A stretch of DNA of 64,000 nt from Bacilli bacterium (GCA_050953085.1 JBMNLX010000009.1:203411-267410), one strand, 5' to 3'; shown: positions 26,168 through 60,148, counted from the first letter of the stretch. The notes: generated from the sequence alone by a model not told the origin. Translations and numbers: made by a program.

Positions 26168-26192
26168 GAAGCCGGCAGAGAGAGGTATCACG

Positions 26193-29356: not shown

Positions 29357-29358
29357 TT

Positions 29359-39663: not shown

Positions 39664-40353
39664 ATGAAATTCGAGAAGTTTTACAACAGCCGGGTTTTCG
39701 GGTTCTTCGACTGGCTGTATCGCATGTTTATCCTCAATATTTTGACCGTTTTGTTTATCGCGTTGGGACTGGCGGTCTTTTCCCTGATGGCGGCGCTCGT
39801 GGCGCTATTAATCGTTCTCCGCTCGGCCAAGAGCGATTTTGATTTCCCGCTCGTCAAAGGTTATGTTAAGAGTTTCTTCGCAAATTTCGTCCCCGTATTG
39901 AAACTCTCGCTTTTCTACGTTATCTTAGGCTTGCTTTTGCTTTTTAACAGTTATTTTTTCTATTTGGGATTTGTGGATAACGGGGGATTTTTGAACGAGG
40001 TACTGTATTATCTTGCCTTGTTTATCGATTTGGTGTTTATTTTGGCTTTCGTGAACGCGTGTTTTGTTTATGTGTATTTTCCAAACCTAACTTATTGGAA
40101 GGTAGTCAAGTATTCATTCGTCTTACTGCGGGCCGTCCCGCTTCAGGCGCTGTCCCTGGCCGCGTTTGTTGCCGCGGCGGTCGCGCTATTATTCGTGAAG
40201 ATTATTAACATTATTTTGATATTTATTTTCGTTGCTCTTTTTATTTATATCGCCAATCTTTTGCTTGAAAAAATTTATTTACGTTTGGCGGCCGAGGGAG
40301 TCAGGCCGCGCGACGTTTTCCTTTACCTGAGAGACAAACGGGAAAATTCTTAA
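39664..40353 (+). CDS. YesL-family (DUF624) integral membrane protein
   Basis: Hydrophobic 229-aa protein resembling YesL found in Firmicutes sugar ABC loci. Confidence 0.7.
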   Translation: MKFEKFYNSRVFGFFDWLYRMFILNILTVLFIALGLAVFSLMAALVALLIVLRSAKSDFDFPLVKGYVKSFFANFVPVLKLSLFYVILGLLLLFNSYFFYLGFVDNGGFLNEVLYYLALFIDLVFILAFVNACFVYVYFPNLTYWKVVKYSFVLLRAVPLQALSLAAFVAAAVALLFVKIINIILIFIFVALFIYIANLLLEKIYLRLAAEGVRPRDVFLYLRDKRENS

Positions 40354-40372
40354 GGTTTGTGAGGGAAGAATC

Positions 40373-43249
40373 ATGAAAAAAAAGATTATTATTATCGCCT
40401 TAATCACCGGAATCGGCCTGTTTCTTTATTTTGGGGTTAAACGGAATCCCGTTCCCGTCCGTTCCGCAATCTATCAGGGCTCGGTCTATCAAGACGGAGC
40501 CGGCGCCTTGCCCGATTATCACGCCTATCTGAGCGAAAGAGCGGACGCGGCTCGTCCCGCGGAAGAAATCGTGATTTCCGCGGTCGAGTCCTATGACTAT
40601 GATTCCGACGGTTTCGAGGCCGAATGTTATTCGACGGAAGAAGACGGGGTTGCGGGACTTTATATTCCCGAGCCCGGCGAGGTCTGCTGGGAGGTTGACG
40701 TTCCCCAATCCGGTTTATACAATATCGAGATTAAGTATTACCCGGTGCCCGGCCGGAGCGCGGCGATTGCTCGCGGGCTGAAGATCGACGGCGAATACCC
40801 CTTTAAGGAGGCCGCGAACTTTACCCTGTCCCGGATTTGGGTCGACGAGTTTCCCGTCGCCAGCCGGCGCGATACCGGCAAGCATGATATCAAACCATCG
40901 CAAATCGAAAATAATAGATGGAACAACGAGACCGTCCGCGACACCAACGGTTATTATGACGGCCGACCGTATCATTTTTATCTGGAGTCCGGGAAACGAA
41001 CGATCACTTTGGTCGGCGTCCGGGAACCGGTGGTGATAGCGGAAATCAAGATCTATCAAAAAGCGCCGGAGCCCGGTTACCGCGATTATCTTGACCATTA
41101 TCGCGCCGCCGGCTATCAAGAAATTGAGACGCCCGGAGGCTTTTACAAAATCCAGGGCGAGAACCCGCTCGAAAAATCGACCCCGGTCTTGGCCCCGGTC
41201 GCCAACTGGAGCAGCTATAAGGTCGACCCCTACGAAAAATTTATCACCCGGTACAACACCGTCGGCGGTTATGCCTGGCGGGTCGCGGGCGATTGGATTA
41301 CTTGGGAGGCGGAGGTTCCGGCCGCGGGACTTTACAGATTGAGCTTTAAAGTCTTGCAGAATTATAGCCGCGGGATGGACAGCGCGCGGATCCTCTACAT
41401 TAACGGCGAGGTCCCGTTCGCGGAGTGCCGCGAGATCCGTTTCCGATACCGCGGCGACTGGCAAAACGCGACTTTGGGAAGCGAGGAAGAGGATTATTGG
41501 TTTTACCTTGAGGAAGGAAAAAATACGATTACCCTGGAAGCGACGATTGGCGTTTACGACAACGTCATCCGCACCGCCGAGCAGACGATAGCGATTCTTA
41601 ACCGCCTGTACCGGAAAGTGGTAATGATTACCGGCGTCGCCCCCGACAAGTACCAAGATTATCTTTTGGAAGAACGGATCGACGATCTTTGGGAAATGAT
41701 CGACGAGAGCATATATAATCTCGAATACTGCATCGAGGAAACGATAAAAATCGCCGGCGAACGGAGCGGCTTAATCTCCGCTTTCGAGAGAACGCTCGTT
41801 CAGTTGCGGAAATTTAAGAAAAGCGAGCAAAACATCCAAAGAAGCCTTAAGGAACTGGAGGACAATATCGCCGCCTTGGGGACATGGGTGATGGATATTT
41901 CCGAGCAGCCCCTGGCCGTCGACTGCCTTTACGTTTTAGGGAAGGATGGCAAGCTCCCCAAGGCCTCGACGAATTTCTTTCAAAAATTATGGCACGAGCT
42001 CGTGATGCTCGTCGGCAGTTTCGGAGCCGGCAGCGCGCTCGAGAGCAGCATCAAGGCCGACGGTCCGACGATTACCGTTTGGGTGTTCTCCGGTCGCGAC
42101 CAATCGCAACTTTTACGGCAACTGGTCGACGAGTCGTTTACTTTGCGGGAAAACATTAACGTGAAACTGAAACTGGTCAACGCAACCGCCTTGCTTCCGG
42201 CGACACTCGCCGGGAACGGCCCGGACGTCGCCTTGGGCGTCGGGCAAAATATCCCCGTGAACTGGGGAATAAGGAAGGCGCTTCTCGATCTCGCGGAGTT
42301 TTCCGATTTTCCCGAGGTCGCCGCTTGGTTCAGCCCCAGCGCTCTTACGGCTTTCCGCTTTGGCGATAGCGTTTACGCCCTTCCCGATACCGAGGATTTT
42401 CTCGTGACTTTTATTCGGACCGATATCGCCGAGGAAATGGGTTTTTCGGCCCCCGAAACATGGGATGAGGTTTTGACGCTTGTCCCGTACCTGCAGAGAT
42501 CGTACCTCGATTATTATATACCCAATACCCGCGGCGCTCTAAGCACAGTGCTGCACGCGATGATCGTTCAAAAGGGCGGCTCCCTCTACGAGGAGGGCGG
42601 CCGGAAAACGAGACTTATGGAAACGGACGCTACCGAAGCCTTCATTGACTTCACGAGTTTCTTTTCCGACTACGGGTTCGCCGTGAGCGCCAATTTCCCC
42701 AACCGTTTCCGCAGCGGGGAGATGCCGATCGGGATTTATAATTATTCGCTTTACAACACTTTGGCGGTTTTCGCCCCGGAAATTAACGGTCATTGGCGAT
42801 TCGCGCCGCTGCCGGGCTATGAAGAAGACGGGGTCATTCATAACCTGACGACCTCCACGGTGACCGGATCCGTCATCCTCGCAGACTCGAAGGAAAAAGA
42901 AGCAAGCTGGAAGTTTTTGAAATGGTGGCTTTCGGCGGAAACGCAGGCGAATTACGCCCGCGGCATGGAAGCGATTCTCGGCGCCGCGGCCCGTTACCCG
43001 ACCGCCAACCTCGAGGCTTTCGGAAGTCTCCCGTGGTCGGCGCGGGACTACCGCGTGCTTGAAAAACAGCGCGATGCCGCCGTCGGCGTTCCGACGATCC
43101 CCGGCGATTATATCGTCGGCCGTTATCTCGACAACGCTTTCCGCGCCGCCATCAATAATAACCTTAACCCTCGCGATACTTTGTTTGAATACGCGCAGAA
43201 AATTGACCTGGAAATTACCCGCAAACGTAAAGAGTTCAATCTTGATTAG
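40373..43249 (+). CDS. 958-aa extracellular solute-binding protein (CUT1-type) with N-terminal TM anchor and two CBM-like beta-sandwich repeats
   Basis: C-terminal half = family-1 SBP; N-terminal repeats CWEVDVPQSGLYNIEIKYYP / ITWEAEVPAAGLYRLSFKVLQNY. Confidence 0.75.
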   Translation: MKKKIIIIALITGIGLFLYFGVKRNPVPVRSAIYQGSVYQDGAGALPDYHAYLSERADAARPAEEIVISAVESYDYDSDGFEAECYSTEEDGVAGLYIPEPGEVCWEVDVPQSGLYNIEIKYYPVPGRSAAIARGLKIDGEYPFKEAANFTLSRIWVDEFPVASRRDTGKHDIKPSQIENNRWNNETVRDTNGYYDGRPYHFYLESGKRTITLVGVREPVVIAEIKIYQKAPEPGYRDYLDHYRAAGYQEIETPGGFYKIQGENPLEKSTPVLAPVANWSSYKVDPYEKFITRYNTVGGYAWRVAGDWITWEAEVPAAGLYRLSFKVLQNYSRGMDSARILYINGEVPFAECREIRFRYRGDWQNATLGSEEEDYWFYLEEGKNTITLEATIGVYDNVIRTAEQTIAILNRLYRKVVMITGVAPDKYQDYLLEERIDDLWEMIDESIYNLEYCIEETIKIAGERSGLISAFERTLVQLRKFKKSEQNIQRSLKELEDNIAALGTWVMDISEQPLAVDCLYVLGKDGKLPKASTNFFQKLWHELVMLVGSFGAGSALESSIKADGPTITVWVFSGRDQSQLLRQLVDESFTLRENINVKLKLVNATALLPATLAGNGPDVALGVGQNIPVNWGIRKALLDLAEFSDFPEVAAWFSPSALTAFRFGDSVYALPDTEDFLVTFIRTDIAEEMGFSAPETWDEVLTLVPYLQRSYLDYYIPNTRGALSTVLHAMIVQKGGSLYEEGGRKTRLMETDATEAFIDFTSFFSDYGFAVSANFPNRFRSGEMPIGIYNYSLYNTLAVFAPEINGHWRFAPLPGYEEDGVIHNLTTSTVTGSVILADSKEKEASWKFLKWWLSAETQANYARGMEAILGAAARYPTANLEAFGSLPWSARDYRVLEKQRDAAVGVPTIPGDYIVGRYLDNAFRAAINNNLNPRDTLFEYAQKIDLEITRKRKEFNLD

Positions 43250-43263
43250 GGAGGACGGAACCG

Positions 43264-44193
43264 ATGACAAGCATAACGAAAAATAAAAATAAGCCATCCT
43301 TTTGGCAGCAGGTCAAGAAAAACAAAGTATCGTATTCGATGGTCGCTCCTTTCTTTATCATCTTTTTTACGTTCACCGTCTTGCCGGTGTTGATGAGTTT
43401 CGGGCTTAGTTTTACTTCCTTTGACATGCTCCAAGCGCCGAAATTTATCGGCCTTGATAATTATATCAACTTATTTTTAAACGACGAGGTCTTCCTGATC
43501 GCTCTCAAAAACACTTTTATCCTGGCGGTCATTACCGGGCCCGTCTCTTATATCATGGCCTTTGTTTTCGCTTGGCTTATTAACGAGCTGCCGCGAAAGA
43601 TCAGGTGGCTCATGACGCTCATTTTCTACGCGCCGTCAATCAGCGGCAGCGCTTATCTCTTATGGCAATTGATATTCTCTTCCGATATGTACGGTGTTTT
43701 AAACGCGACGCTTATGGATTTGGGGATCATCAACGCTCCGATTTTATGGTTGGACACCCCGCAATACGCGTTGCCGATCCTTATTATCGTTCAGCTATGG
43801 TTAAGCCTCGGCGTTTCCTTCCTCGCGTTTATCGCGGGGCTTCAGACCGTGGATAAAACGTTATACGAGGCGGGGGCGATCGACGGGATCCGCAACCGCT
43901 GGCAGGAACTTTGGTATATTACCCTCCCGCAGATGAAACCGCAGTTGATGTTCGGGGCGGTTATGCAGATCACGAGCGCGCTCGGGATCGCCGCGGTCTC
44001 GATTAATCTGCTCGGGTTTCCTTCCGTCGAGTATTCCGGTCATACGATCGTGACCCACCTTATGGACTTCGGCTCGACGAACTCCACCCGTTTGGAGATG
44101 GGGTACGCTTCCGCGATCGCGACCGTCCTGTTTTTCATTATGCTCGGGTCCAACCTGATCGTTCAGAAAATTATCAGAAGGGTGGGAACGTAA
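43264..44193 (+). CDS. carbohydrate ABC transporter permease (CUT1, MalF/LplB-like)
   Basis: 6 TM, EAA loop AGAIDGIRNRWQELWYITLP. Confidence 0.85.
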   Translation: MTSITKNKNKPSFWQQVKKNKVSYSMVAPFFIIFFTFTVLPVLMSFGLSFTSFDMLQAPKFIGLDNYINLFLNDEVFLIALKNTFILAVITGPVSYIMAFVFAWLINELPRKIRWLMTLIFYAPSISGSAYLLWQLIFSSDMYGVLNATLMDLGIINAPILWLDTPQYALPILIIVQLWLSLGVSFLAFIAGLQTVDKTLYEAGAIDGIRNRWQELWYITLPQMKPQLMFGAVMQITSALGIAAVSINLLGFPSVEYSGHTIVTHLMDFGSTNSTRLEMGYASAIATVLFFIMLGSNLIVQKIIRRVGT

Positions 44194-45131
44194 TGGAAGA
44201 CGTCCAAAGCCGCGAGGCGATTGTCGCGGATCTAAAGCGCGAGGAATTAAAATGGCTTAAGGAGCGTAACCGCCGCCGCCGGCTCCGGCGCAAGGTAAGG
44301 CTCAGCCGCTCGTGGAAAGGCGATATATTCGTAATCATCGTTTTGATTGCTTTTGGTTTTTTCAGCGCCTATCCCTTAATTTTTACCATCGCCAACTCCT
44401 TAAAACCCTTGGACGAGATATTTAAGTTTCCGCCGCGGCTTTTGCCGAGACGGATCACGTTCGAACATTTTGTGGATCTTTTTAACTTAATCGGAAACAC
44501 GCAAATCCCGATATCGCGGTATTTGCTTAACACGGTGCTGATTACGTTGTTCGGGACCGTCGGTCATGTTTTCCTGGCTTCGCTTTGCGCATATCCCCTG
44601 GCAAAGCATAAATTCCCCGGAAAGCACTTGATCAATCAAATGATCGTTTACTCGCTGATGTTCAGCGCCGCGGTAACGATGATTCCGACATACATGATTT
44701 CGAGTTGGCTGGGGCTCATCGACTCTCAACTCGCGATCATCATCCCCGCTTTCGGGTATTCGCTCGGGATATTCCTGATGCGCCAGTTCATTAACACGAT
44801 TCCCGACGAACTTTTGGAGGCCGCCAAGGTTGACGGCGCGAACGAGTACCAAATATTCTTTAAGATTGTTATGCCGCTAGTGAAACCGGCGTGGCTCACC
44901 CTGATAATTCTTCTTTTCCAACAATTATGGGGCGCGGACGGCGGGAACTATATATTCACCGAAAACTTAAAACCCTTAAGCTACGCCTTAAGCCAAATTG
45001 TCGCCGGCGGCATCCCGCGGACGGGAACGGCGGCGGCGGTGACGGTGATAATGCTCGTTGTCCCGATTACCGTGTTTATCATTAACCAATCGCGCGTTCT
45101 TGACACTATGGCGCATTCGGGGTTGAAGTAG
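44193..45131 (+). CDS. carbohydrate ABC transporter permease (CUT1, MalG/LplC-like)
   Basis: EAA loop EAAKVDGANEYQIFFKIVMP. Confidence 0.85.
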   Translation: MEDVQSREAIVADLKREELKWLKERNRRRRLRRKVRLSRSWKGDIFVIIVLIAFGFFSAYPLIFTIANSLKPLDEIFKFPPRLLPRRITFEHFVDLFNLIGNTQIPISRYLLNTVLITLFGTVGHVFLASLCAYPLAKHKFPGKHLINQMIVYSLMFSAAVTMIPTYMISSWLGLIDSQLAIIIPAFGYSLGIFLMRQFINTIPDELLEAAKVDGANEYQIFFKIVMPLVKPAWLTLIILLFQQLWGADGGNYIFTENLKPLSYALSQIVAGGIPRTGTAAAVTVIMLVVPITVFIINQSRVLDTMAHSGLK

Positions 45132-45138
45132 GTGAAAT

Positions 45139-46629
45139 ATGAAAAGAACAGCTTTATTTCTTATCGCTTTTTTCGTTGCGTTTATCTTTGTTTCCGCCGA
45201 GGCGAGCGCGGCTTATAATTATGACCCTTTCGGCGACGCGATCGCTTCCGCGGAAGCGCTGATCGCGCGAAAAGTCGTCGATTCCTCGAATTTGCTTGAC
45301 CGGGAAGGAGAGAGCGCCGGTTACGTCTTCGGCGCCCTGGCGGACGTTTTCGCTCATGAAGACCGGGTTTTTATCGTCGACTCCGAAAACGACGCCGTCG
45401 TCGTTCTCGACGACGAGTACAGGTTTATAGCCGCCTTCGGAAGGGACGAGGGGGCGGGAAAACTGAAAAACCCGCGCGGGATATACGTCACCGAGGATTA
45501 TATTTACGTCGCCGACTACGGAAACAATAGGGTGGCCGTGTTCACCCATGATTATGAGTTTTCGTGGGAAGCGACGACGCCTGACGATCCCTCCTTCAAA
45601 CAAGACCCCGCCGACGAGCGCGGTTACGACTTTAAGCCGCTGAAGCTCGCGGTCAACGACGCGGGACGGATCTATGTCGTCGCGGACCAGATTTTCGAAG
45701 GAATAATCGATTTAAACCCCGACGGTTCCTTTTCCCGCTATGTCGGGGCTTCGACCGTGACGCTTTCGGTTTGGGAGGCGTTCTGGTTATTGTTCACGAC
45801 CGAGACGCAGCGCCGGGCGCAGGGTTACCGCCTGGCGACAAGCTTCGTCAACGTTAACGTCGACGAGAAGGGGCATCTTTATACCCTGTCGGGGTTATCG
45901 GAAGGAAGCCGCGTCATTAAAAAGCTGAACAACAAAGGTTACGATATTTTATGGCGGAACGGTTACGTGCCGCCGGTGGGCGACGTCGCCTCGATCGACG
46001 GTCGGGTCAAAGTGCCGACCGGGCCGAGCCAGCTCGTCGACATCGACGTAAACGAAAGCGGGACCTATTGCGTTCTTGACAAAACCCGCGGCCGGATATT
46101 TGTCTATGACTTCGAGGGTTATCTTCTGTATATCGGCGGCCAGCTCGGCAATATCGGCGGAGCCGCCAACAACCAGCGTTCCCTCTTCTTAAGTCCCGAG
46201 GCGCTTTGCTTTCATAAGGACGGTATCCTGGTGGTCGATTCCCTTAATAAAAATCTCGTCGTCATGGGTTACACGGAGTTCGCGAGTCTTGTCAACGCCG
46301 CTTCCGACCGCTATTTCAAGGGCGAATACGACGAGGCCATGGAACTGTGGGAAGAAGTGCTCGTTCACAATACCAACTACTATCTCGCTTACGCCGGCAT
46401 CGGCAAAGCCCTGTTACGCGCCGGCGATTACCGGGGCGCGATGGTTAATTGTAAACTTGGTCACGACAGATACAATTACTCGAAAGCCTATAAATATTAC
46501 CGCTATGAGAAAATGACCGTGATTTTTCCGTATATCGCCGCGACGGCGCTCGGGCTCGCCGTTTTCCTGTTTGTCCGTTCGTTAAGAACTTCGGTTCGCC
46601 GGGAACAAGAGGAGGAGAATAATGAATAA
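45139..46629 (+). CDS. secreted NHL-repeat beta-propeller protein with C-terminal TPR-like region and TM anchor
   Basis: Signal peptide; repeated YVADYGNNRVAVF-type NHL blades; C-term TM ATALGLAVFLFV. Confidence 0.7.
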   Translation: MKRTALFLIAFFVAFIFVSAEASAAYNYDPFGDAIASAEALIARKVVDSSNLLDREGESAGYVFGALADVFAHEDRVFIVDSENDAVVVLDDEYRFIAAFGRDEGAGKLKNPRGIYVTEDYIYVADYGNNRVAVFTHDYEFSWEATTPDDPSFKQDPADERGYDFKPLKLAVNDAGRIYVVADQIFEGIIDLNPDGSFSRYVGASTVTLSVWEAFWLLFTTETQRRAQGYRLATSFVNVNVDEKGHLYTLSGLSEGSRVIKKLNNKGYDILWRNGYVPPVGDVASIDGRVKVPTGPSQLVDIDVNESGTYCVLDKTRGRIFVYDFEGYLLYIGGQLGNIGGAANNQRSLFLSPEALCFHKDGILVVDSLNKNLVVMGYTEFASLVNAASDRYFKGEYDEAMELWEEVLVHNTNYYLAYAGIGKALLRAGDYRGAMVNCKLGHDRYNYSKAYKYYRYEKMTVIFPYIAATALGLAVFLFVRSLRTSVRREQEEENNE

Positions 46630-47287: not shown

Positions 47288-49878
47288 TGAACGATAGTTA
47301 TCAAAAAACCTCAAGCCTGGTATCGCCGCTTGCCGGGAAAACTGGCGGCGGGAATAAAAGCGCGTTGCGAGCTTTCCGCTTTCCGTGGGCGAAATTATTG
47401 ATTGTGGTTTTGCTTGCCTTAATCGCCGGCGGGATTTATCTTACCGCGGTTTTGAATAAAGTAAAAGTCCCGCCCCGACCGGCATACGACAAGGAAGGTT
47501 TCGTTCCCGCGGCGGAGTTCCGCGCCCAAAACGGCGCGCTCACTGTTCTTGAAAACGAAAACTACCGTTTCGCATTTTCCAATACCGACACCACCTTTGT
47601 CCTCACGGACAAGGATAGCGGCTACGAATGGAGCTCCAACCCGCTCGGCGCGGCGAAGCGTTTCATGAACCCGCTCGTTCTTTATTACGCCGGCGCCCTA
47701 GGGGCGGCGCAGAAAATGGGCGTCGGGGAAGAAGCGGTCGCTCACGATGATTTCTATATTAGAAAAACCGCCGACGCGATTGAAGTTCTTTACGCGGCGG
47801 GCGGGAAGCGGACGGTCGACGCTTCCGATTTCCCAAAAGTCATGACCGAGGAGCGAATGCAGGAAAAAATCCTTTCCAAACTCGAGCCCGGCACGACTCC
47901 TTACCGGCGCGTCACCGAACAGTGCTATGTTCACGGAACCTTAAAAGGCGATAAGATTTGGCAGCTGAAGGATGGGATCCAACCCCATATTCTCGAGGCT
48001 TTATATGAAATATTCTATGACCGGTGCGGATACACGACCGAGGATTTGGCTTATGACCTGGAGCTTGCCGGCATTCAATACGAGGATAAATACCCCTATT
48101 TTGAAATCGCCGTCCGCTACGAGCTATCGGCCGAGGGACTCGCCGTCCGCCTGGTTAACGAATCGATTTACGAGAAGGAAAAATTCCCGCTTGTTTATGT
48201 CGATCTCCTTCCTTATTTCGGCTCCGCGACGACCGAGGACGTGGGTTATACCTTGATTCCCGACGGCAGCGGCGCCTTAATCGAGCATAACAACGGCCGC
48301 TCTTTCGCGATGCCTTACTTGCAAAGAATCTACGGCGCCGACGCCGCCGAGATCAAACCGGTCATGTTGCCGGCCGCCGAGAAAATATCCTTCCCCGTTT
48401 TCGGCATCCGCCGCGGCGATTCCGCGTTGCTCGCGTCCGTTGACGAAGGCGCGGCGATGGCCGCGCTGGCCGCGAACGGTAGCACGGCGGACAATCCCTA
48501 CAATCAAGCCTATTTCCGTTATTACCTGCGCGAATCGCAAAGTTTCGAGTTTGCTTCTTATCAAAAAGTCGTCACCGTGATCGAATGGACGGCTTGGTAC
48601 AATAAGGCTGATTTCGTCGTGAAATACATGACGGTGAACGAGGACGGAGGAAGCTACGCGGCGATGGCGCGAAAATATCGGGAATACCTGATCTCGCGCG
48701 CGGTTTTGCATGAAAGAACGGCGGGTTTGGGATTTAATCTCACGCTATTGGGCGGCTATATCGCTCGCGATAATTTTCTCGGCATACCCTACGAAACGGT
48801 GCGCGCTTTGACCGACACGAAAGAAGTCCTGGAGATCGCCCGCGAGCTTAGGGAAGCTGGAATCGAAAACCTCAACATTATCTACCGCGGCTGGGGAAAC
48901 GACGGAATCAAACCGACTTACGCCGGGAAAATCCGCTATAACCGCGCCGTCGGAAAACGCGGCGCTTTCCGCTCGCTGAAGAAAGAACTTGACGCGCTCG
49001 GGGTCGAGTTTTTCCCGGAGATTTGCCTGCAGACTGCTTACACCGGCCGCGACATCCGGGAAAGCAAAACCGCCGCCCGCAACGTCTTGGGCCGGGTGGT
49101 AAAAAACTACGACTACACGGAAGCGACGTTTTACGCCGACACCTCGACCCGTCCGTACTATATGCTAAAACCCGCGACTTATGAGCAAACGCTCCGGGCG
49201 GTTATGAAGGAATTTGAAAAAACCGGCATTGACAATCTCGCGGTTCGCGACGCCGGCGCGCTTGCGGGTAGTTATCATAAAAAAGACACCTATTTCCGCG
49301 CCGATAGCGAGCGATATTTCCGCGAGGCGATGACGGCCTCGTTTGCGGGGAAAAGAATGTTTTCCGATCCCAATCTTTACGCCTTGCCGTTTTGCGATAT
49401 TATTGTCGACCTGCCGGCTACCGCCACCCCCTATCAAATTATCGGTGTCGCCGTGCCCTTTGCCCAACTAGTCTTAAGCGGCGCCGTCTCTTACGGCGGC
49501 CGATCGTTTAATATCGACGACAAATATCCCTACCGGTGGCACGAAATGAAAGCGATCGAAACGGCCGCGGATATTAGTTTCACTTGGAGCTACGAATCAA
49601 CCGTCGCGCTCGCGGAAACGGAATACAAGTATTATTCGACCTATTACCGCAATTGGATTGACAAGGCCGTCGAAACGTATCGCGAACTCAAGGCTCTGGG
49701 TATTCACGACGCCCGTCTCGTTGATCACCGTTTGCTTACGGATGACGGCTCCGTCGTTAAGTCGGTCTATAGCGACGGCGCGGAAATCATATTTAATTAC
49801 GGCATGACGCCGTTTAATTACGGAATGGATCAGGTGGCGCCGAACAGCTATTACGTCGCAAAGGGGGCGCGGTCATGA
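47287..49878 (+). CDS. DUF5696-family protein with N-terminal TM anchor
   Basis: ~860 aa, N-terminal TM LLIVVLLALIAGGIYL; start taken at second ATG with RBS TGGAGG. Confidence 0.65.
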   Translation: MNDSYQKTSSLVSPLAGKTGGGNKSALRAFRFPWAKLLIVVLLALIAGGIYLTAVLNKVKVPPRPAYDKEGFVPAAEFRAQNGALTVLENENYRFAFSNTDTTFVLTDKDSGYEWSSNPLGAAKRFMNPLVLYYAGALGAAQKMGVGEEAVAHDDFYIRKTADAIEVLYAAGGKRTVDASDFPKVMTEERMQEKILSKLEPGTTPYRRVTEQCYVHGTLKGDKIWQLKDGIQPHILEALYEIFYDRCGYTTEDLAYDLELAGIQYEDKYPYFEIAVRYELSAEGLAVRLVNESIYEKEKFPLVYVDLLPYFGSATTEDVGYTLIPDGSGALIEHNNGRSFAMPYLQRIYGADAAEIKPVMLPAAEKISFPVFGIRRGDSALLASVDEGAAMAALAANGSTADNPYNQAYFRYYLRESQSFEFASYQKVVTVIEWTAWYNKADFVVKYMTVNEDGGSYAAMARKYREYLISRAVLHERTAGLGFNLTLLGGYIARDNFLGIPYETVRALTDTKEVLEIARELREAGIENLNIIYRGWGNDGIKPTYAGKIRYNRAVGKRGAFRSLKKELDALGVEFFPEICLQTAYTGRDIRESKTAARNVLGRVVKNYDYTEATFYADTSTRPYYMLKPATYEQTLRAVMKEFEKTGIDNLAVRDAGALAGSYHKKDTYFRADSERYFREAMTASFAGKRMFSDPNLYALPFCDIIVDLPATATPYQIIGVAVPFAQLVLSGAVSYGGRSFNIDDKYPYRWHEMKAIETAADISFTWSYESTVALAETEYKYYSTYYRNWIDKAVETYRELKALGIHDARLVDHRLLTDDGSVVKSVYSDGAEIIFNYGMTPFNYGMDQVAPNSYYVAKGARS

Positions 49879-51302
49879 AAAATAACGCCCGCATCGAAAA
49901 GTTGAATAAAAAAATCGCGCTGCTAAGCGCCCGAATCGAGAAGGCGGCGGCCGAGCGCGCCGAATTGCTTTCTCTCGCGACCGTACCTCTCGGGAAAGTC
50001 TTCCGGCTGGAACGGCTCCTTTTTCGCCTGGAAAACGGCCGCGAAGCGCGCCGGGAGAAACTTTCCGCCCTGGAAACGGGCGCGCCCGCGCGGCGGAAAA
50101 CGAGAAGGGCGCGCATTGCCTACCTTAGCCCGGAAGCTGGGAAGATCTATTCCGAGCAAATCAAAGCGAAAAAAGAAAAATATGAGAAAAGTTTGGATAA
50201 GGCGACCGAGAAATACATAGAAAAAGCTAAGGCCAAACAGACAGGCCAAAAAGGCGTCAGTTACCGCCAAGTCGCGGTCGCCGGCCGAAAACGGGAACGG
50301 CTTAAGAAAACGGTTCAACATTACGAATTACAATTATTGCGTCTTAGCGAAGGCAAATACCAGTTACTCGGTTTCTTCGGAAAAATTAAGCGATCTTTCT
50401 CCCAAATGCCTTACGGCAAGCAAAAATTAGTATTCGGTTTGCTTTTCCTTACTCCTTGGATAATCGGTTTTTGCATTTTTTTCGCCGTTCCCGTTTTTAC
50501 TACTATTTCTTGGAGTTTTCAAAAACTCGAGACGGTTTCCGGCGGCGGCTTTAAGTCGACGTTCGTCGGGTTCGGGAATTACCGCGATTTGTTTACGACC
50601 GCGACCTTGGCCGGATCGACAATCTCCGAAGTTATCGTCGCCTCGGTGATCGATATCTTGTTGGATCTTCCGACGATTATTATCTTTAGTTTGTTTATCG
50701 CCGCGCTTTTGAACACGCGCTTTAAGGGTCACCAACTGGTGAAGGCGATCTTTTTCATCCCGGTTGTCTACAACATCACCGTTATCAACAACACCCTCAC
50801 GGGGATGTTCGGCCAGCGATTTGACTCCGCGATTACGGAAGGATTCAATCTTTCGCAGCGTTTCGCCTTCTTTCTTCAGCGGATCGGCGTCGGCGGGAAT
50901 CTGATCGACTTTCTGATTTCCGCGGTCGACCGAATCTTCACGATTGTCAATATGTCGGGAATCCAGATTTTGATGTTTATCGCCGCTCTGCAGTCAATCC
51001 CGAAACATCTCTACGAAGCCGCCAAGGTTGAAGGCGCGACCTCTTACGAGATGTTTTGGAAGATTACTTTCCCGATGGTTTCGCCGATTATCATGACGGC
51101 GATCGTCTTTACCATCGTCAACAGTTTCGCGACCTCCGAGATCATGAATTTCATGACCGTGAACTCGCAGGGAACGACGATGGCGACCAATAACCCCGGA
51201 CTTTACTCGGCCATCGCGATTATCTACTTTCTGGCAAACGCCCTGATAATCGCCGCCGCTTTCGTTATCATGAGAAAGGTTGTGTTCTATCATGACAAGT
51301 AA
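49875..51302 (+). CDS. carbohydrate ABC permease (MalF-like) with ~180-aa basic coiled-coil N-terminal cytoplasmic extension
   Basis: Permease core with EAA loop EAAKVEGATSYEMFWKITFP; N-terminal KLNKKIALLSARIEKAAAERAELL...KAKKEKYEKSLDKATEKYIEKAKAK. Confidence 0.8.
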   Translation: MKNNARIEKLNKKIALLSARIEKAAAERAELLSLATVPLGKVFRLERLLFRLENGREARREKLSALETGAPARRKTRRARIAYLSPEAGKIYSEQIKAKKEKYEKSLDKATEKYIEKAKAKQTGQKGVSYRQVAVAGRKRERLKKTVQHYELQLLRLSEGKYQLLGFFGKIKRSFSQMPYGKQKLVFGLLFLTPWIIGFCIFFAVPVFTTISWSFQKLETVSGGGFKSTFVGFGNYRDLFTTATLAGSTISEVIVASVIDILLDLPTIIIFSLFIAALLNTRFKGHQLVKAIFFIPVVYNITVINNTLTGMFGQRFDSAITEGFNLSQRFAFFLQRIGVGGNLIDFLISAVDRIFTIVNMSGIQILMFIAALQSIPKHLYEAAKVEGATSYEMFWKITFPMVSPIIMTAIVFTIVNSFATSEIMNFMTVNSQGTTMATNNPGLYSAIAIIYFLANALIIAAAFVIMRKVVFYHDK

Positions 51303-52290
51303 GCAAAGTTTTAAAACGAAGGCGGCGTCCCGTTTAGCATCGCTCCGGGAACGGCTCGCGTCGCCGCGGGAGCGGATGCTTCTTCGCCGGCGGGCGTTAA
51401 ACGCGATCGCGAACATCTTTAAATACGCGCTCCTAATTGGGCTTTGCTTTATTATCCTTTACCCGATTATCCTGCAACTCGCGCTCGCCTTCCGGGCTCC
51501 CGAAGACGTCAATAACCCGGCGATTCTTTGGATCCCGGAACGGTTCTCGCTGAAGAATTTCGAGGTTGCGATGATCGCCCTCCGTTACTGGGAGGCGCTG
51601 CGTTATACTCTCATCCTGTCAACAATAGTCACCGTCCTGCAGCTGGCCTCGACCTCGCTCGCGGGCTACGCCTTCGCGAGGCTCAGGTTCCGCGGCAGCT
51701 CGATTTTGTTTGGGTTAGCGCTTTTCACGATTATCGTTCCCCAAACCGTTATCTCGCTTCCGCTATTACGGGCGGTAACGAAAATGGGTCTTGTTGACAA
51801 ACCGATAACGCTCTTCCTTATGTCCGGGCTCGGCATGGGGATTAGGTCGGGTATCTTTATCTATCTGTTCCGTCAGTTTTACCGCGGGCTTCCGGTCGAG
51901 CTCGAGGAAGCGGCCGTCGTCGACGGCGCCAACGCTTTCCAGGTTTTTTACCGGGTAATGCTCCCGAACGCGAAGCCGGCGATCATCACGGTCGGTCTTT
52001 TGAGTTTCGTTTGGCAGTGGAATGATTTTTACTTCACGAAACTGTTTTCCGGCGGCCAGTATTTCACGCTCACGACGCAGCAGGTCGCGGTTCTTTACGG
52101 CTTGCAGCAGGCGTTGGCCGACGCCGGGGTTTGGAGTCTTCTCGGACAGGATATCACCAACAACCCGTATTTTTCTTCAATGATCCTGAATACGTGCGGC
52201 ATTTTGGTAATGCTTCCGCTATTGGTCATTTATTTCTTCGTCCAGAAATTATTCGTAGAGGGAATTGAAAGATCCGGCATCGTCGGATAA
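51280..52290 (+). CDS. carbohydrate ABC permease (MalG-like) with ~50-aa N-terminal extension
   Basis: EAA loop EAAVVDGANAFQVFYRVMLP. Confidence 0.8.
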   Translation: MCSIMTSKQSFKTKAASRLASLRERLASPRERMLLRRRALNAIANIFKYALLIGLCFIILYPIILQLALAFRAPEDVNNPAILWIPERFSLKNFEVAMIALRYWEALRYTLILSTIVTVLQLASTSLAGYAFARLRFRGSSILFGLALFTIIVPQTVISLPLLRAVTKMGLVDKPITLFLMSGLGMGIRSGIFIYLFRQFYRGLPVELEEAAVVDGANAFQVFYRVMLPNAKPAIITVGLLSFVWQWNDFYFTKLFSGGQYFTLTTQQVAVLYGLQQALADAGVWSLLGQDITNNPYFSSMILNTCGILVMLPLLVIYFFVQKLFVEGIERSGIVG

Positions 52291-52324
52291 AATATATACC
52301 GGAAAGGAGCAAAAGATAATAAAC

Positions 52325-53866
52325 ATGAAAATCATAAAAAAATTATTTCTCGTTTTGATTATTTTCCTCGCGGTTTTCGCCGTCGGCTGTAAAAAGGATG
52401 ACGACAACGGAAACAACAACGGAAATAATAACGGAAACGGAAACGAGAACGGCAACGGGACGATCGACGACCCCGTTCCCGACATGAAAGGGCAAACCTT
52501 CATAATCATGGTTAACCGCGCCTCGACAACCGACCCGCGGAGCGAGGCTTACACCGGCAGTTGGAAAGATCAGAAGATCGCCAAGATTCAAGAAGTCGAA
52601 GATAAGTACAATATCAAAGTGGAATACCGCACATATCCCGCGGAAGCGGTTTGGGGCGGCGGCCGCGAACGGTTTATAATCGAAAACTCGGTTAACGACA
52701 CGCCGAAGGCGCATATTTACGAGATGCCGTCTTACTCAATCGCGATTCTCGCGGAAGCAAAGGCGATCTTGCCTTTGGACTCGCTGATCGAGAAATACGG
52801 GAATCCGGGTTATTGGCCGGAAAAGGCGGCTTTTGGCATGGTAATGGGCAAGCAATACGCCTATGACGACGGTTACCCGCTCGTCGGCCAGGGGATCTTT
52901 TATAATATCGACTTGCTCGAGGAGTATTTGGGCGAGGGCAAGGGCACTCTCCCGAGCGAGCTTTGGCTCGCGGGCGAGTGGGATTGGGACGCTTTCCGCG
53001 AGATCTGTTATCAACTCTTGCCGGGAATCTCCGGCCGCGCCGTCGAGGGAGCCGCCGTTATCGGCGGCCGGGCTTACAACTGGGCATACCAAATGCTTGG
53101 GGCGAACGGCGTTCACGTCGTCACCACCGACCTGAAGTCGGAACTGTCGACCGCTCCCGCCATCGATACCCTGACTTTCCTGCACGAACTGATCAGCGTT
53201 CCGGGAATGTGGGAATGGCAGAGCGCGGCCTTGGAAAACGCCTCCTGCCCGCAGTTTAAAGCCGGAAATATCGCCTTTCATAACGGCGAGCCTTATTGGC
53301 TATATGACTCGACGAAATGGCTTGATTACCAGTTTAATATGGGCTTCGTTCCCTACCCGACCGGGCCGAACACCAACGAAGACTTAAGCAATTACTACAT
53401 TAACGAGATTTACGGGAAGACGAGTTACGTTGTTTCGAGTTCCTACTCGCTTGAAAAAGTTCCGCCGGGATACGAGAACATCATGTTCCACGAGGAGAAT
53501 ATTTTCCGCATCTGGTCCGACCTGCAATATTTTCCGGAGATCGACGAGGAAACGGGGTATAGTTCCACCGACGAGATCGTCGAGGAATGGGTGTTCACCA
53601 CGCTGGAACTTTATTACAGCCCGAAAGGAAACAACGCCTCGATCGAGGCTCATAAGTCGATTATGTTCAGAGGCTATCCCGATTATTTCTACAGCCTTTA
53701 CTGGGCCCGCAGCCAAGACGAGACCAAGTCGTTCATGCTTGAAATCCAGCAGGCGATTCTGAGCGGGTCAATCCGCGACGAGATGATCGATCTCGTGAGC
53801 CGGATTCATCAAGAATTTCTCGACACATACACAAATCTAGGCTTAACCGAAGAACACTATAAATAA
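52325..53866 (+). CDS. extracellular solute-binding lipoprotein (CUT1 family) with Asn/Gly low-complexity linker
   Basis: Lipobox AVGC; RBS GGAAAGGAG; SBP fold. Confidence 0.8.
   Translation: MKIIKKLFLVLIIFLAVFAVGCKKDDDNGNNNGNNNGNGNENGNGTIDDPVPDMKGQTFIIMVNRASTTDPRSEAYTGSWKDQKIAKIQEVEDKYNIKVEYRTYPAEAVWGGGRERFIIENSVNDTPKAHIYEMPSYSIAILAEAKAILPLDSLIEKYGNPGYWPEKAAFGMVMGKQYAYDDGYPLVGQGIFYNIDLLEEYLGEGKGTLPSELWLAGEWDWDAFREICYQLLPGISGRAVEGAAVIGGRAYNWAYQMLGANGVHVVTTDLKSELSTAPAIDTLTFLHELISVPGMWEWQSAALENASCPQFKAGNIAFHNGEPYWLYDSTKWLDYQFNMGFVPYPTGPNTNEDLSNYYINEIYGKTSYVVSSSYSLEKVPPGYENIMFHEENIFRIWSDLQYFPEIDEETGYSSTDEIVEEWVFTTLELYYSPKGNNASIEAHKSIMFRGYPDYFYSLYWARSQDETKSFMLEIQQAILSGSIRDEMIDLVSRIHQEFLDTYTNLGLTEEHYK
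52404..52460 (+). repeat. imperfect AACGGA hexanucleotide microsatellite encoding NGNNNGNNNGNGNENGNG linker
   Basis: aacggaaacaacaacggaaataataacggaaacggaaacgagaacggcaacggg. Confidence 0.8.
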
Positions 53867-56139: not shown

Positions 56140-56150
56140 TATTTCCCAAA

Positions 56151-56178
56151 TGTAAAACATTGAAAAAAGTGGTATAAT
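56151..56178 (+). promoter_or_regulatory. promoter for GntR regulator (weak -35 TGTAAA, extended -10 TGGTATAAT)
   Basis: TGGTATAAT 56170-56178, 31 nt before ATG 56208. Confidence 0.45.
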
Positions 56179-56207
56179 TATAAAAACTTATTTTAGCGAG
56201 GTAGTAT

Positions 56208-58009: not shown

Positions 58010-58018
58010 GGATATGTT

Positions 58019-60147: not shown

Positions 60148-60148
60148 T

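What the first reader, a model, noticed from the sequence alone, without database searches (positions are those of the whole stretch)
39664..53866. Conserved-but-uncharacterised DUF5696 / Yip1 / NHL-propeller / YesL cassette embedded between two complete CUT1 importers with unusual accessories
Gene order is YesL - CBM-fused 958-aa SBP - permease pair - NHL propeller (signal plus TM) - Yip1 - DUF5696 (TM-anchored, 864 aa) - second permease pair - lipoprotein SBP, all co-directional with overlapping stops and starts. Three things are atypical. (a) An SBP carries two N-terminal CBM-like beta-sandwich repeats and its own TM anchor. (b) A MalF-like permease has a ~180-aa lysine/arginine-rich coiled-coil cytoplasmic N-terminal extension (KLNKKIALLSARIEKAAAERAELL...). 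(c) No ATPase gene is present, so presumably a shared MsmK-type ATPase is encoded elsewhere. I believe DUF5696, Yip1 and YesL commonly travel together in Firmicutes sugar loci without a known role. Here they sit at the centre of a 36-kb glycan system, which makes this a good place to assign them a function.
Basis: partly seen in the sequence, partly recalled or inferred. Interest (0 to 1): 0.65.

Follow-up and report, generated by a model that had tools for sequence, protein, structure and literature searches.

The report
Conserved eight-gene glycan uptake module
The flagged genes are real and form a widespread, rigidly ordered eight-gene bacterial module: two sugar-import channels, a giant sugar-binding protein, a propeller/membrane-anchor pair and a surface protein related to GH129 glycosidases. 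The accessory parts of this module have never been tested experimentally.

Summary

This is not a cassette that happens to sit between two independent importers. The ~960-aa binding protein, permease pair 1, NHL, Yip1, DUF5696 and permease pair 2 form one invariant eight-gene module. I found the same order in every one of 107 related loci examined. These range from wall-less Bacilli to Paenibacillus, Anaerotaenia and human-gut bacteria, and DUF5696 identity falls as low as 23%. NHL and Yip1 are fused into one protein in several genomes.

YesL, the second binding protein and the basic permease extension are lineage-specific additions.

DUF5696 is not fold-unknown. Its model matches GH129 and GH101 glycosidases, and true GH129 fragments pass Pfam's DUF5696 threshold. 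The window protein has Asp at the candidate catalytic positions, but only about a third of the family keeps both.

Neighbouring glycosidases differ between genomes, which points to a generic machine for complex-glycan uptake.

By its annotation, the same arrangement is xylan-induced in Caldicellulosiruptor bescii. It is described there as two transporters plus an NHL protein and a GH129 protein, with no function tested.

The parts
39664..40353 (+). YesL-like DUF624 membrane protein. It is a lineage-specific accessory, not part of the conserved core.
   Evidence: Pfam PF04854, E 1.3e-8. Four hydrophobic segments. Present in the window clade and in L016/L017, absent from the other distant loci whose gene tables cover the module's flanks.
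40373..43249 (+). Giant membrane-anchored binding protein, core component 1. Layout: TM anchor, two CBM35-like beta-sandwiches, a helical bundle, then an oligosaccharide-type SBP domain.
   Evidence: Pfam SBP_bac_1/8 at residues 580-865, with sub-threshold CBM_35 and Golvesin_C hits. Internal repeat E 4e-10. AF2 model pLDDT 88.3. Foldseek best matches are oligosaccharide-binding proteins for sophoro-, manno- and malto-oligosaccharides and lacto-N-tetraose. 28-40% identical across the distant loci.
43264..44193 (+). Permease P1a (MalF/UgpA-like), core component 2 and the most conserved part of the module.
   Evidence: BPD_transp_1. EAA loop 'LYEAGAIDG...ITLP' read. Forms its own orthologous group and is 50-67% identical in the distant loci.
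44193..45131 (+). Permease P1b (MalG/UgpE-like), core component 3.
   Evidence: BPD_transp_1, E 1.2e-14. EAA loop 'LLEAAKVDG'. Own orthologous group, 39-60% identical.
45139..46629 (+). Extracytoplasmic NHL beta-propeller with a TPR segment and a C-terminal TM anchor, core component 4.
   Evidence: Pfam NHL (44 bits) and DUF5128 six-bladed propeller. PDB TRIM71/TRIM2 NHL domains at E 4e-17, and TPR at residues 385-435. Signal sequence plus TM at 461-479. Fused to Yip1 in L018, L019, L026, L027, L028 and L103.
46622..47287 (+). Yip1-family polytopic membrane protein, core component 5.
   Evidence: Pfam PF04893, E 2.1e-15. Five to six TM segments. Always sits between NHL and DUF5696.
47272..49878 (+). 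DUF5696, a membrane-anchored extracytoplasmic GH129/GH101-like (beta/alpha)8 protein, core component 6. The probable start is M6 at 47287.
   Evidence: PF18952, 492 bits. AF2 model pLDDT 89.8, pTM 0.86. Foldseek against PDB: GH129 5opq E 3e-31, NagBb 5wzp E 2e-25, then GH101, GH36 and GH31. Profile against PDB sequences: GH129 at E 1e-9 and 3e-8. Candidate catalytic residues D660 and D699/D713.
49875..51302 (+). Permease P2a (MalF-like), core component 7, carrying a lineage-specific 182-aa basic cytoplasmic N-terminal extension.
   Evidence: BPD_transp_1 at residues 253-466. EAA loop 'LYEAAKVEG'. The extension has 47 K+R, is about 100-110 aa in L002-L015, and is absent in the distant loci. Own orthologous group.
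51280..52290 (+). Permease P2b (MalG-like), core component 8. The start is either the TTG at 51280 or the ATG at 51292.
   Evidence: BPD_transp_1, E 1.1e-11. EAA loop 'LEEAAVVDG'. Own orthologous group, 31-44% identical.
52265..53866 (+). Second, conventional lipoprotein SBP (probable start 52325). It is an optional addition to the module.
   Evidence: SBP_bac_1/8 just above threshold. Lipobox FAVGC. Present in the window clade, in L029, and by annotation in C. bescii as AxoE. Absent after P2b in L019, L020, L022, L023 and L028, and no further SBP hit follows P2b in the 80 metagenome loci.

Best explanation
The region is one instance of an ancient, self-contained module for taking up complex glycans in Bacillota and their wall-less relatives.

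The module's fixed parts are:
- a roughly 1000-aa surface binding protein with two CBM35-like domains;
- a first CUT1 permease pair (P1a/P1b);
- an extracytoplasmic NHL propeller;
- a Yip1 membrane protein;
- an extracytoplasmic GH129-family protein (DUF5696);
- a second CUT1 permease pair (P2a/P2b).

Proposed mechanism:
1. The CBM-bearing binding protein captures polymer or large oligosaccharide at the membrane surface.
2. The GH129-like ectoprotein processes or holds it, possibly together with the NHL propeller.
3. The two dedicated translocators import the products. They are energised by a shared MsmK-type ATPase encoded elsewhere.
4. Cytoplasmic exo-glycosidases, which differ from genome to genome, finish the degradation.

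NHL-Yip1 most likely acts as the membrane scaffold or regulatory subunit that ties the ectoproteins to the transporters.

In this window the module has been placed in a 36-kb locus for amino-sugar and phosphodiester-linked glycans (GHL10, GH84, NAGPA, two DUF4127, NanE, SGNH esterase, GntR). It has also picked up lineage-specific extras: YesL, a second lipoprotein SBP and a basic tail on P2a.

What is shown and what is inferred:
- Shown: gene content, invariant order, orthology of all eight parts, NHL-Yip1 fusions, the GH129-like fold and sequence relationship, and variable CAZyme neighbours.
- Inferred: physical association of the parts, the direction of hand-off, catalytic activity of DUF5696, and the substrate.
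For: 1. Invariant order.
- 15 genome loci of the window's clade keep YesL(where present)-SBP-P-P-NHL-Yip1-DUF5696-P-P-SBP.
- 12 loci from distant homologues (DUF5696 23-30% identical), of which L016/L017 are two copies of one locus, keep SBP-P1a-P1b-NHL-Yip1-DUF5696-P2a-P2b. They include cultured Paenibacillus arenilitoris and Anaerotaenia torta.
- Of 80 metagenome loci, 55 are complete and 25 are cut by contig ends. None deviates.

2. Orthology. All eight parts are orthologous across loci, and the four permeases form four separate orthologous groups.

3. Self-sufficiency. The module stands alone among housekeeping genes in L019, L022 and L023.

4. Functional linkage. NHL and Yip1 are a single ORF in L018, L019, L026, L027, L028 and L103.

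5. DUF5696 is GH129-like.
- Foldseek E 3e-31 and 2e-25 to GH129 structures, then GH101.
- Profile hits to GH129 PDB sequences.
- NagBb-type GH129 fragments score 57, 36 and 29 bits against Pfam DUF5696, whose cut-off is 25.6.

6. Extracytoplasmic location of the SBP, NHL and DUF5696 in all loci, through TM anchors, signal peptides or lipoboxes.

7. Working translocators. All four permeases carry EAA loops, so both pairs should dock ATPase subunits.

8. Carbohydrate context, with different partners in different genomes:
- GH84/GHL10/NAGPA in the window;
- GH20/GH3/NAGPA/NagB in L016;
- GH42, GH4, GH125+GH76, GH43, GH95 and GH130.

9. Expression. By annotation, C. bescii Athe_0174-0181 has the same order (SBP, two permeases, NHL repeat protein, GH129, two permeases, SBP). 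It is one XynR/AraR operon induced on xylan and cellulose, and deleting the shared MsmK abolishes growth on oligo- and polysaccharides (PMC8579813).

10. Precedent for the scaffold role. The Yip1-family protein YknW modulates assembly of an ABC transporter complex in Bacillus (PMC4887032).
Against: - No physical interaction has been shown. Synteny and gene fusion are indirect evidence.
- The positions aligned with the GH129 catalytic pair are poorly conserved. Across 151 diverse representatives, D660 is Asp in 81, D713 is Asp/Glu in 79, both are acidic in 50 and neither in 40. The Paenibacillus and Anaerotaenia proteins lack both. Many members may therefore not be classical hydrolases.
- My residue mapping rests on a manual alignment. 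hhalign places the register 3 residues away, with 18% probability.
- Characterised GH129 and GH101 enzymes act on alpha-GalNAc or 3,6-anhydro-galactose. That fits poorly with the xylan, mannan or fucose contexts of many modules.
- Why two translocators are needed is unexplained.
- The 80 metagenome loci are the best matches to one query clade, so they are not phylogenetically independent.
- The C. bescii correspondence rests on published annotation, not on a sequence comparison made here.
Confidence: 0.6

Rival explanations
1. Two autonomous CUT1 importers flank an independent accessory cassette (YesL, NHL, Yip1, DUF5696). The cassette's members work on their own, for example as a free-standing surface glycosidase, and are co-located only for co-regulation.
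For: Each permease pair has the standard MalF-like plus MalG-like composition with EAA loops. In the window, in L029 and in C. bescii, each pair has its own SBP. The C. bescii authors annotated the two pairs as separate transporters, Xlo and Axo.
Against: Among distant loci whose downstream flank was seen, L019, L020, L022, L023 and L028 have no SBP after the second pair, and none follows it in the 80 metagenome loci. The eight genes are never found separated or reordered in 107 loci, although DUF5696 diverges to 23% identity. YesL is not a constant member. The module also occurs alone, without other catabolic genes.
Confidence: 0.15
2. DUF5696 is a catalytically dead GH129-like pseudo-enzyme across the module family. 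It serves as a glycan receptor or lid, or as a structural platform, and possibly as the substrate-delivering partner of the second permease pair, which usually lacks its own SBP. On this view it is not a hydrolase.
For: The candidate nucleophile and acid/base positions are acidic together in only 50 of 151 representatives and are both lost in 40. Residues outside the catalytic positions are nearly invariant: the PDGSG loop with D331, D357, N747, E763 and H819. The gene sits directly upstream of P2a and often overlaps it, mirroring the SBP-P1a-P1b arrangement. The neighbouring glycosidases span unrelated substrates, which argues against one conserved specificity.
Against: The window protein and most of its clade keep Asp at positions 660, 699 and 713. 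Low overall identity (23-30%) is what substrate-driven divergence of real enzymes would produce. No type I ABC importer is known to use a GH-fold protein in place of an SBP (my own knowledge). The residue mapping is uncertain.
Confidence: 0.2
3. The module is not nutritional. It recycles or remodels the cell's own surface glycans, or it senses external glycans.
For: It stands alone among housekeeping genes in L019, L022 and L023, and a GT4 glycosyltransferase lies nearby in L023. A LytR_cpsA_psr gene lies downstream in L055.
Against: Most loci are flanked by catabolic glycosidases and sugar-responsive regulators of the GntR or AraC type. The SBP domain resembles oligosaccharide-uptake proteins. 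The C. bescii counterpart is induced by xylan within the xylan degradation locus.
Confidence: 0.05

Closest known systems
Caldicellulosiruptor bescii xylan degradation locus, Athe_0174-0181 (xloEFG - Athe_0177 NHL repeat protein - Athe_0178 GH129 - axoFGE); Rodionov et al. 2021, PMC8579813
   Same: By annotation the gene order is the same: SBP, two permeases, NHL repeat protein, predicted extracellular GH129-family protein, two permeases, second SBP. The genes form one operon, have no ATPase of their own and depend on the shared MsmK. They are induced by polysaccharide.
   Different: The substrate context is xylan rather than amino sugars, and the flanking enzymes are xylanases. The authors treated it as two separate transporters plus an unknown gene 'X' and a putative GH129. 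They did not recognise a conserved module and did not test NHL or GH129. I could not compare sequences with the tools left, so the correspondence is inferred from annotation.
CAZy family GH129 (B. bifidum NagBb alpha-N-acetylgalactosaminidase; Zobellia ZgGH129 3,6-anhydro-D-galactosidase) and the related GH101 endo-alpha-GalNAc-ases (EngBF, SpGH101)
   Same: The multi-domain fold is the same: N-terminal beta-sandwich, (beta/alpha)8 barrel, C-terminal beta-sandwich. Sequence similarity is detectable at profile level. GH129 fragments pass the Pfam DUF5696 threshold. EngBF is likewise a surface enzyme whose product is taken up by an ABC importer (PMC8106489).
   Different: Identity is about 13%. 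NagBb is described as releasing GalNAc from the Tn antigen, whereas the module proteins sit next to very different glycosidases. The candidate catalytic Asp residues are only about 50% conserved in the family. The module proteins are always extracytoplasmic and always embedded between NHL-Yip1 and a permease pair.
Bacillus YknWXYZ, an ABC transporter with a Yip1-family accessory subunit
   Same: A bacterial Yip1-family membrane protein is encoded with an ABC transporter. It is reported to modulate assembly of the transporter complex (PMC4887032).
   Different: YknYZ is a MacB-type exporter with a membrane-fusion protein. Here the partners are type I CUT1 importers, and Yip1 is coupled or fused to an NHL propeller.
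CUT1 oligosaccharide importers energised by a shared MsmK/MsmX ATPase (S. pneumoniae, B. subtilis, C. bescii)
   Same: MalF/MalG-like permease pairs with EAA loops, an oligosaccharide-type SBP and no ATPase gene in the locus.
   Different: Ordinary CUT1 operons have one SBP of about 420 aa and one permease pair. This module has an SBP of about 1000 aa with two CBM-like domains and a helical stalk, two obligatorily linked permease pairs, and three further conserved membrane or surface proteins.
Bacteroidota Sus-like systems (functional analogy only; from my own knowledge)
   Same: Surface glycan binding, surface processing and a dedicated transporter are co-encoded as a cassette that is re-used for many different glycans with variable enzyme partners.
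   Different: The proteins are unrelated (SusC/D TonB-dependent transport across an outer membrane) and the envelope architecture differs. No homology is implied.

Membership tests
Pfam PF18952 (DUF5696) | Score above the Pfam gathering threshold over the full model | tested here: met
   492 bits against a cut-off of 25.6. Residues 257-860 match model positions 2-612 of 612.
CAZy GH129 (clan with GH101) | Significant fold and sequence similarity to characterised GH129 enzymes | tested here: met
   Foldseek: 5opq E 3.2e-31 (TM 0.67-0.69 normalised to target) and 5wzp E 2.2e-25 (TM 0.74). Profile A1 against PDB sequences: 8rzk E 9.7e-10 and 5wzn E 2.8e-8. NagBb-like fragments hit PF18952 above threshold.
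CAZy GH129 (clan with GH101) | Conserved catalytic nucleophile Asp (NagBb D435) and acid/base (NagBb E478, numbering from my memory; W398 and the D435 context are consistent) | tested here: inconclusive
CAZy GH129 (clan with GH101) | Demonstrated glycosidase activity | not testable with these tools
   This needs a recombinant ectodomain assay.
CUT1 (TC 3.A.1.1) binding-protein-dependent sugar importer | MalF-like plus MalG-like permease pair with EAA coupling loops | tested here: met
   BPD_transp_1 in all four permeases. NCBIfam best hits are UgpA/UgpE, MalF/MalG and GlcT/GlcU. EAA loops were read in the translations. The feature is met twice, once for each pair.
CUT1 (TC 3.A.1.1) binding-protein-dependent sugar importer | Extracytoplasmic oligosaccharide-type solute-binding protein | tested here: met
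   SBP_bac_1/8 in both SBPs. Foldseek of the 958-aa model: TM 0.7-0.8 (normalised to target) to oligosaccharide SBPs.
CUT1 (TC 3.A.1.1) binding-protein-dependent sugar importer | MsmK/MalK-type ATPase available | tested here: not met
   None is encoded in the 64-kb window. This is usual for Firmicutes CUT1 systems, which share an ATPase encoded elsewhere (PMC8579813), so it does not exclude membership. The rest of the genome could not be inspected.
Yip1 family (PF04893) | Pfam match over the whole domain, with a polytopic membrane topology | tested here: met
   57.5 bits against 28.6, matching model positions 2-172 of 173. Five to six hydrophobic segments.
NHL-repeat six-bladed beta-propeller | NHL repeat matches and similarity to solved NHL domains | tested here: met
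   PF01436 at 44 bits against 20, and DUF5128 six-bladed propeller. TRIM71, Thin and TRIM2 NHL domains at E 4e-17 to 2e-14. The number of blades was not verified by a model.
   DUF624 is present in the window clade and in L016/L017, where it follows P2b. It is absent from the other distant loci whose gene tables extend beyond the module.
CBM35 (PF16990) for the N-terminal repeats of the 958-aa SBP | Pfam score above threshold, or a fold match to CBM35 | tested here: inconclusive
   The window protein scores 18 bits against a cut-off of 28. Several full-length homologues carry precomputed PF16990, PF25275 or PF17829 hits. The model shows two beta-sandwiches, but the whole-chain Foldseek output listed only SBP matches.
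C. bescii Athe_0174-0181 type module | Sequence orthology of the eight genes to the C. bescii genes | not tested
   Only published annotation and gene order were compared. The search quotas that could have fetched the sequences were exhausted.

The most novel reading that the evidence does not exclude
The eight proteins form an obligate membrane supercomplex, a monoderm counterpart of the Bacteroidota 'utilisome'. In it, NHL-Yip1 physically couples two ABC translocators. The GH129-fold protein has largely given up hydrolysis and acts as a glycan-threading receptor or gate. This would let very large, branched oligosaccharides of many chemistries be imported by one conserved machine.
Probability: 0.2. 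Interest if true: 0.85.

Novelty: new variant of a known kind. Interest (0 to 1): 0.58.

Why it matters
CUT1 ABC importers are the main route for oligosaccharide uptake in Gram-positive bacteria. They are normally pictured as one binding protein plus one permease pair.

Here a much larger arrangement of fixed composition recurs across a large family. The DUF5696 profile finds 6,721 protein clusters at 50% identity. In every one of the 107 loci examined, from Paenibacillus and Anaerotaenia to wall-less Bacilli and human-gut metagenomes, that gene sits in the same eight-gene order. By annotation, the arrangement also occurs in the biomass degrader Caldicellulosiruptor.

Three of the eight proteins have no tested function. 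If they work as one machine, this would change how glycan-utilisation loci in Firmicutes are annotated and engineered. It would also give a concrete role to bacterial Yip1 and NHL proteins and to a large, mislabelled branch of GH129.

The question is directly testable, because C. bescii has genetic tools and a known inducing substrate.

Tried and rejected

2. I tried to fetch full-length NagBb (GH129) by searching with the 145-aa fragment seen in a HMMER alignment. Only short metagenomic fragments came back. They were enough to see the D435 context but not E478.

3. Mapping the catalytic residues by profile against PDB with the whole protein, and with a barrel-only alignment, did not align the beta4-beta6 region. 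hhalign against a fragment gave a low-probability alignment.

4. I tested whether positions 660 and 713 co-vary as a catalytic pair. The association is weak (odds ratio 2.2, p 0.02, not corrected for phylogeny), so it is not decisive.

5. I looked for an ATPase in the locus. The only candidates are two genes upstream of the module in L020, and they are LolD/MacB-like rather than MsmK-like. I rejected them as the module's general ATPase.

6. Literature searches for 'DUF5696' (0 papers), for Yip1+NHL+SBP+permease (0 papers) and for DUF624 (nothing functional) gave no characterisation.

7. I picked thermophile-like representatives hoping to find a Caldicellulosiruptor sequence. None was found, but the search did show Alkalihalobacillus trypoxylicola and Acetivibrio alkalicellulosi members.

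8. The promoter and terminator scans are not above shuffled expectation overall. I used them only to note one strong promoter-like site and one strong terminator-like site.


Full report
**Observation**

- YesL/DUF624: 39664-40353.
- A 958-aa binding protein whose SBP domain covers only residues 580-865: 40373-43249.
- Two permeases: 43264-44193 and 44193-45131.
- An NHL protein: 45139-46629.
- Yip1: 46622-47287.
- DUF5696 (PF18952, E 3.5e-147): 47272-49878.
- Two more permeases: 49875-51302 and 51280-52290.
- A second SBP: 52265-53866.

Junctions overlap or are at most 19 nt apart. Hydropathy supports an N-terminal anchor on the big SBP and on DUF5696. It also supports a signal sequence plus a C-terminal TM on NHL, and a polytopic Yip1.

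- The SBP's N-terminal region is an internal repeat (E 4e-10). It models as two beta-sandwiches followed by a helical bundle and the SBP fold (pLDDT 88.3).
- The 475-aa permease has a 182-residue basic segment, with 47 K+R, before its first TM.
- No ATPase gene lies in the 26-62 kb locus. The only one in the window belongs to an unrelated NMT1-type system at 20-22 kb.

Upstream of 26 kb the genes are housekeeping, so the '36-kb glycan system' (26115-62324) is a fair description.

**What the cassette really is**

I searched outwards from DUF5696.
- Fifteen genomes of uncultured Bacilli, Izemoplasmatales and Acholeplasmataceae share the whole arrangement. There DUF5696 is 33-64% identical.
- I then looked at the contexts of homologues only 23-30% identical.
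- I also started independently from homologues of the giant SBP in cultured Paenibacillus arenilitoris and Anaerotaenia torta.

Every one of these loci has the same core order: ~1000-aa SBP, permease, permease, NHL, Yip1, DUF5696, permease, permease.

A scan of metagenome contigs found 431 further relatives. I annotated the 80 loci that were kept with HMMs built from the earlier loci. Fifty-five have the complete eight-gene order, 25 are cut by contig ends, and none deviates.

All eight proteins are orthologous across the distant loci. Identity to the window proteins is:
- P1a 50-67%;
- P1b 39-60%;
- SBP 28-40%;
- P2a 29-37%;
- P2b 31-44%;
- NHL 27-36%;
- Yip1 24-42%;
- DUF5696 23-30%.

Each of the four permeases forms its own orthologous group, with only weak cross-hits.

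NHL and Yip1 are one ORF in L018, L019, L026, L027, L028 and L103. The topology there is consistent: signal peptide, propeller, one TM, then the Yip1 helices.

In L019, L022 and L023 the module sits alone among housekeeping genes.

The unit of conservation is therefore the eight-gene module, not a four-gene cassette between two unrelated importers. Three features are additions:
- YesL is seen only in the window clade and in L016/L017.
- A second SBP follows pair 2 in the window clade, in L029 and, by annotation, in C. bescii.
- The basic tail of P2a is about 100-110 aa in sister genomes and absent in distant ones.

**DUF5696**

With a 32-sequence alignment, AlphaFold2 gives a confident model (pLDDT 89.8, pTM 0.86). 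It shows a TM helix, N-terminal beta-rich domains, a (beta/alpha)8 barrel and a C-terminal beta-sandwich.

Foldseek against the PDB puts the two characterised GH129 enzymes first:
- ZgGH129 3,6-anhydro-D-galactosidase, E 3e-31;
- NagBb alpha-N-acetylgalactosaminidase, E 2e-25;
- then the GH101 endo-alpha-GalNAc-ases;
- then GH36 and GH31.

The relationship is also visible in sequence. The family profile hits GH129 PDB chains at E 1e-9 to 3e-8. NagBb-type fragments score above Pfam's own gathering threshold for DUF5696 (57, 36 and 29 bits against 25.6). 'DUF5696' is thus the Pfam face of a large GH129-related family.

The family is large. The profile finds 6,721 clusters at 50% identity with E<=1e-3, and 3,958 with E<=1e-30.

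Whether the protein is an enzyme is unresolved.
- By manual alignment, the NagBb nucleophile context (AYLD435VF, with numbering anchored on W398) lies opposite window D660, just past a barrel strand.
- D699 and D713 follow the next two strands and are candidate acid/base residues. All three are Asp in the window protein and in most of its clade.
- hhalign puts the register three residues away with low probability. I could not superpose structures.
- Across 151 diverse representatives, position 660 is Asp in 81 and position 713 is Asp/Glu in 79. Both are acidic in 50 and neither in 40.
- Other residues are almost invariant: G325, the PDGSG loop with D331, D357, P729, N747, E763 and H819.

Either the catalytic machinery differs from that of GH129, or a sizeable part of the family is non-catalytic.

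**Other components**

- The SBP domain of the giant binding protein resembles uptake proteins for sophoro-, manno- and malto-oligosaccharides and for lacto-N-tetraose.
- The N-terminal beta-sandwiches give sub-threshold CBM35 and Golvesin_C hits here, and precomputed CBM35 hits in several homologues.
- The NHL domain matches TRIM71 and TRIM2 NHL propellers (E 4e-17) and is followed by a TPR segment.
- All four permeases carry EAA loops, so both pairs should be working translocators that need an ATPase.
- A shared MsmK/MsmX ATPase encoded elsewhere is established for CUT1 systems (PMC8579813). Its absence here is therefore ordinary.

**Context and substrate**

Neighbouring enzymes differ from genome to genome.
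- In the window: GHL10, GH84 beta-N-acetylglucosaminidase, two DUF4127, a NAGPA phosphodiester glycosidase, NanE, an SGNH/GxDLY esterase, an FAD oxidoreductase and a GntR regulator.
- L016: GH20, two NAGPA, GH3 and NagB.
- L018: GH42.
- L026: GH4.
- Paenibacillus: GH125 and GH76.
- Anaerotaenia: GH43.
- Loci recovered in the metagenome scan (L051, L033): GH95 and GH130.

The module therefore looks like a generic uptake device re-used for chemically different complex glycans.

For this window I infer an amino-sugar-rich substrate, probably phosphodiester-linked and O-acetylated. Candidates are cell-wall, teichoic-acid-like or exopolysaccharide material. This rests only on the neighbouring families.

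A strong promoter-like site at 34518-34546 and a strong terminator-like hairpin at 62417-62440 bracket the co-directional run. The scans as a whole are not above shuffled expectation.

**Literature**

No paper in the library mentions DUF5696. A search on GH129, however, led to Rodionov et al. 2021 (PMC8579813). In the C. bescii xylan degradation locus the operon is written xloEFG-X-GH129-axoFGE-xyn... The supplementary tables list:
- Athe_0174-0176 as an SBP and two permeases;
- Athe_0177 as 'NHL repeat-containing protein';
- Athe_0179-0181 as two permeases and an SBP.

All are up-regulated on xylan and Avicel under XynR/AraR. They have orthologues in C. saccharolyticus (Csac_2419-2412), and the authors' presence/absence table marks them present in most of the genomes they compared.

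By annotation this is the same module, expressed and substrate-induced. The authors treated it as two transporters plus unknowns, and they did not test the NHL or GH129 genes. I could not confirm the correspondence by sequence.

A precedent for a Yip1 protein as an ABC-transporter accessory is YknW of Bacillus YknWXYZ (PMC4887032).

**Mechanism and rivals**

Best-supported reading (confidence 0.6): an integrated module that captures, processes and imports glycans.
- The CBM-bearing SBP binds the glycan at the membrane.
- The GH129-family ectoprotein, perhaps with the NHL propeller, trims or positions it.
- Two dedicated CUT1 translocators import the products using a shared ATPase.
- NHL-Yip1 is the membrane scaffold or regulator.

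Shown: composition, invariant order, orthology, fusion, extracytoplasmic topology, the GH129 relationship and the variable catabolic context.

Inferred: physical association, catalysis, the division of labour between the two translocators, and the substrate.

Rivals:
- A non-catalytic, receptor-like DUF5696 (0.2). This is really a variant of the main model.
- A non-nutritional role (0.05).

**Novelty and score**

The parts belong to known kinds: CUT1 importers, the GH129 superfamily, NHL and Yip1. One instance has been annotated and shown to be induced in C. bescii.

I found no description of three things:
- the module as a fixed eight-component unit spread across Bacillota;
- the NHL-Yip1 fusion evidence;
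- the mixed conservation of catalytic positions.

I rate it a new variant of a known kind, with interest 0.58.

**Limits**

- The 80 metagenome loci are biased towards one clade.
- The rest of this genome, including any msmK, was not available.

Noticed in passing
window 34576-39603 (+): A 1675-aa ORF lies directly upstream of YesL. It has an N-terminal hydrophobic segment and one at residues 1359-1377. It has no Pfam family above threshold and no PDB sequence relative. It is conserved upstream of YesL in L001 (69%) and L008 (52%). In another assembly of the same sequence (L110) the upstream gene is called as only 759 aa, so the long ORF may be two genes, or the other assembly may be interrupted.
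   Followed up: partly
window 26115-34450 and 53876-62324: The flanking genes share a coherent amino-sugar and phosphodiester theme:
- GHL10 with TM anchors and a weak PgaB-C-terminal-like hit;
- GH84 GlcNAcase;
- NAGPA phosphodiester glycosidase;
- NanE;
- an SGNH/GxDLY esterase;
- a GntR/UTRA regulator;
- an FAD_oxidored protein;
- two paralogous DUF4127 proteins (31041-32543 and 58705-60147);
- several proteins with no family (28391-29356, 58019-58708, 61476-62324).
DUF4127 next to NAGPA, NanE and the FAD oxidoreductase may be a pathway worth its own study.
   Followed up: partly
window 45139-46629 (NHL), residues ~24-36; also L016-L029: The predicted mature N-terminus of the NHL proteins carries a conserved motif, Y-x-Y-[DN]-x-[WF]-G-[DE] (AAYNYDPFGD in the window). 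It recurs in almost all distant orthologues right after the signal peptide.
   Followed up: no
L020:892-2563: Two ABC ATPase genes (253 and 305 aa) lie 50 nt upstream of the giant SBP in one distant locus. They are LolD/MacB/FtsE-like rather than MsmK-like. It is unclear whether they serve the module.
   Followed up: partly
window 43264-44193 (P1a) and orthologues: P1a is by far the most conserved module protein, at 50-67% identity where DUF5696 is 23-30%. Yet it matches Pfam BPD_transp_1 only weakly (31 bits in the window; no precomputed hit in L020, L022 and L023, and only weak or faint hits in several others). It is an atypical but strongly constrained permease.
   Followed up: no
L030-L109 (metagenome loci): Many of the 431 metagenomic relatives come from human-gut assemblies. 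In two of the three loci whose flanks I annotated, GH95 fucosidase and GH130 phosphorylase genes follow the module. This suggests that host or dietary complex glycans are substrates in gut Clostridia.
   Followed up: partly
window 34518-34546 and 62417-62440: The best sigma-70-like site (TTGACT-17-TATAAT, 11 of 12) lies just upstream of the 1675-aa ORF. A 10-bp GC-rich hairpin with a T-run follows the last gene of the run. Together they would define a roughly 28-kb transcription unit containing the module.
   Followed up: no
Pfam PF18952 versus CAZy GH129: Fragments about 83% identical to B. bifidum NagBb (a characterised GH129) score above the gathering threshold of 'DUF5696', and also hit Glyco_hydro_101. 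The Pfam name 'family of unknown function' is therefore out of date for at least part of the family.
   Followed up: yes
window 20102-22417 (+): A separate small ABC system (ATPase, permease, NMT1/THI5-like binding protein) is the only ATPase-bearing transporter in the window. It is unrelated to the glycan locus.
   Followed up: no
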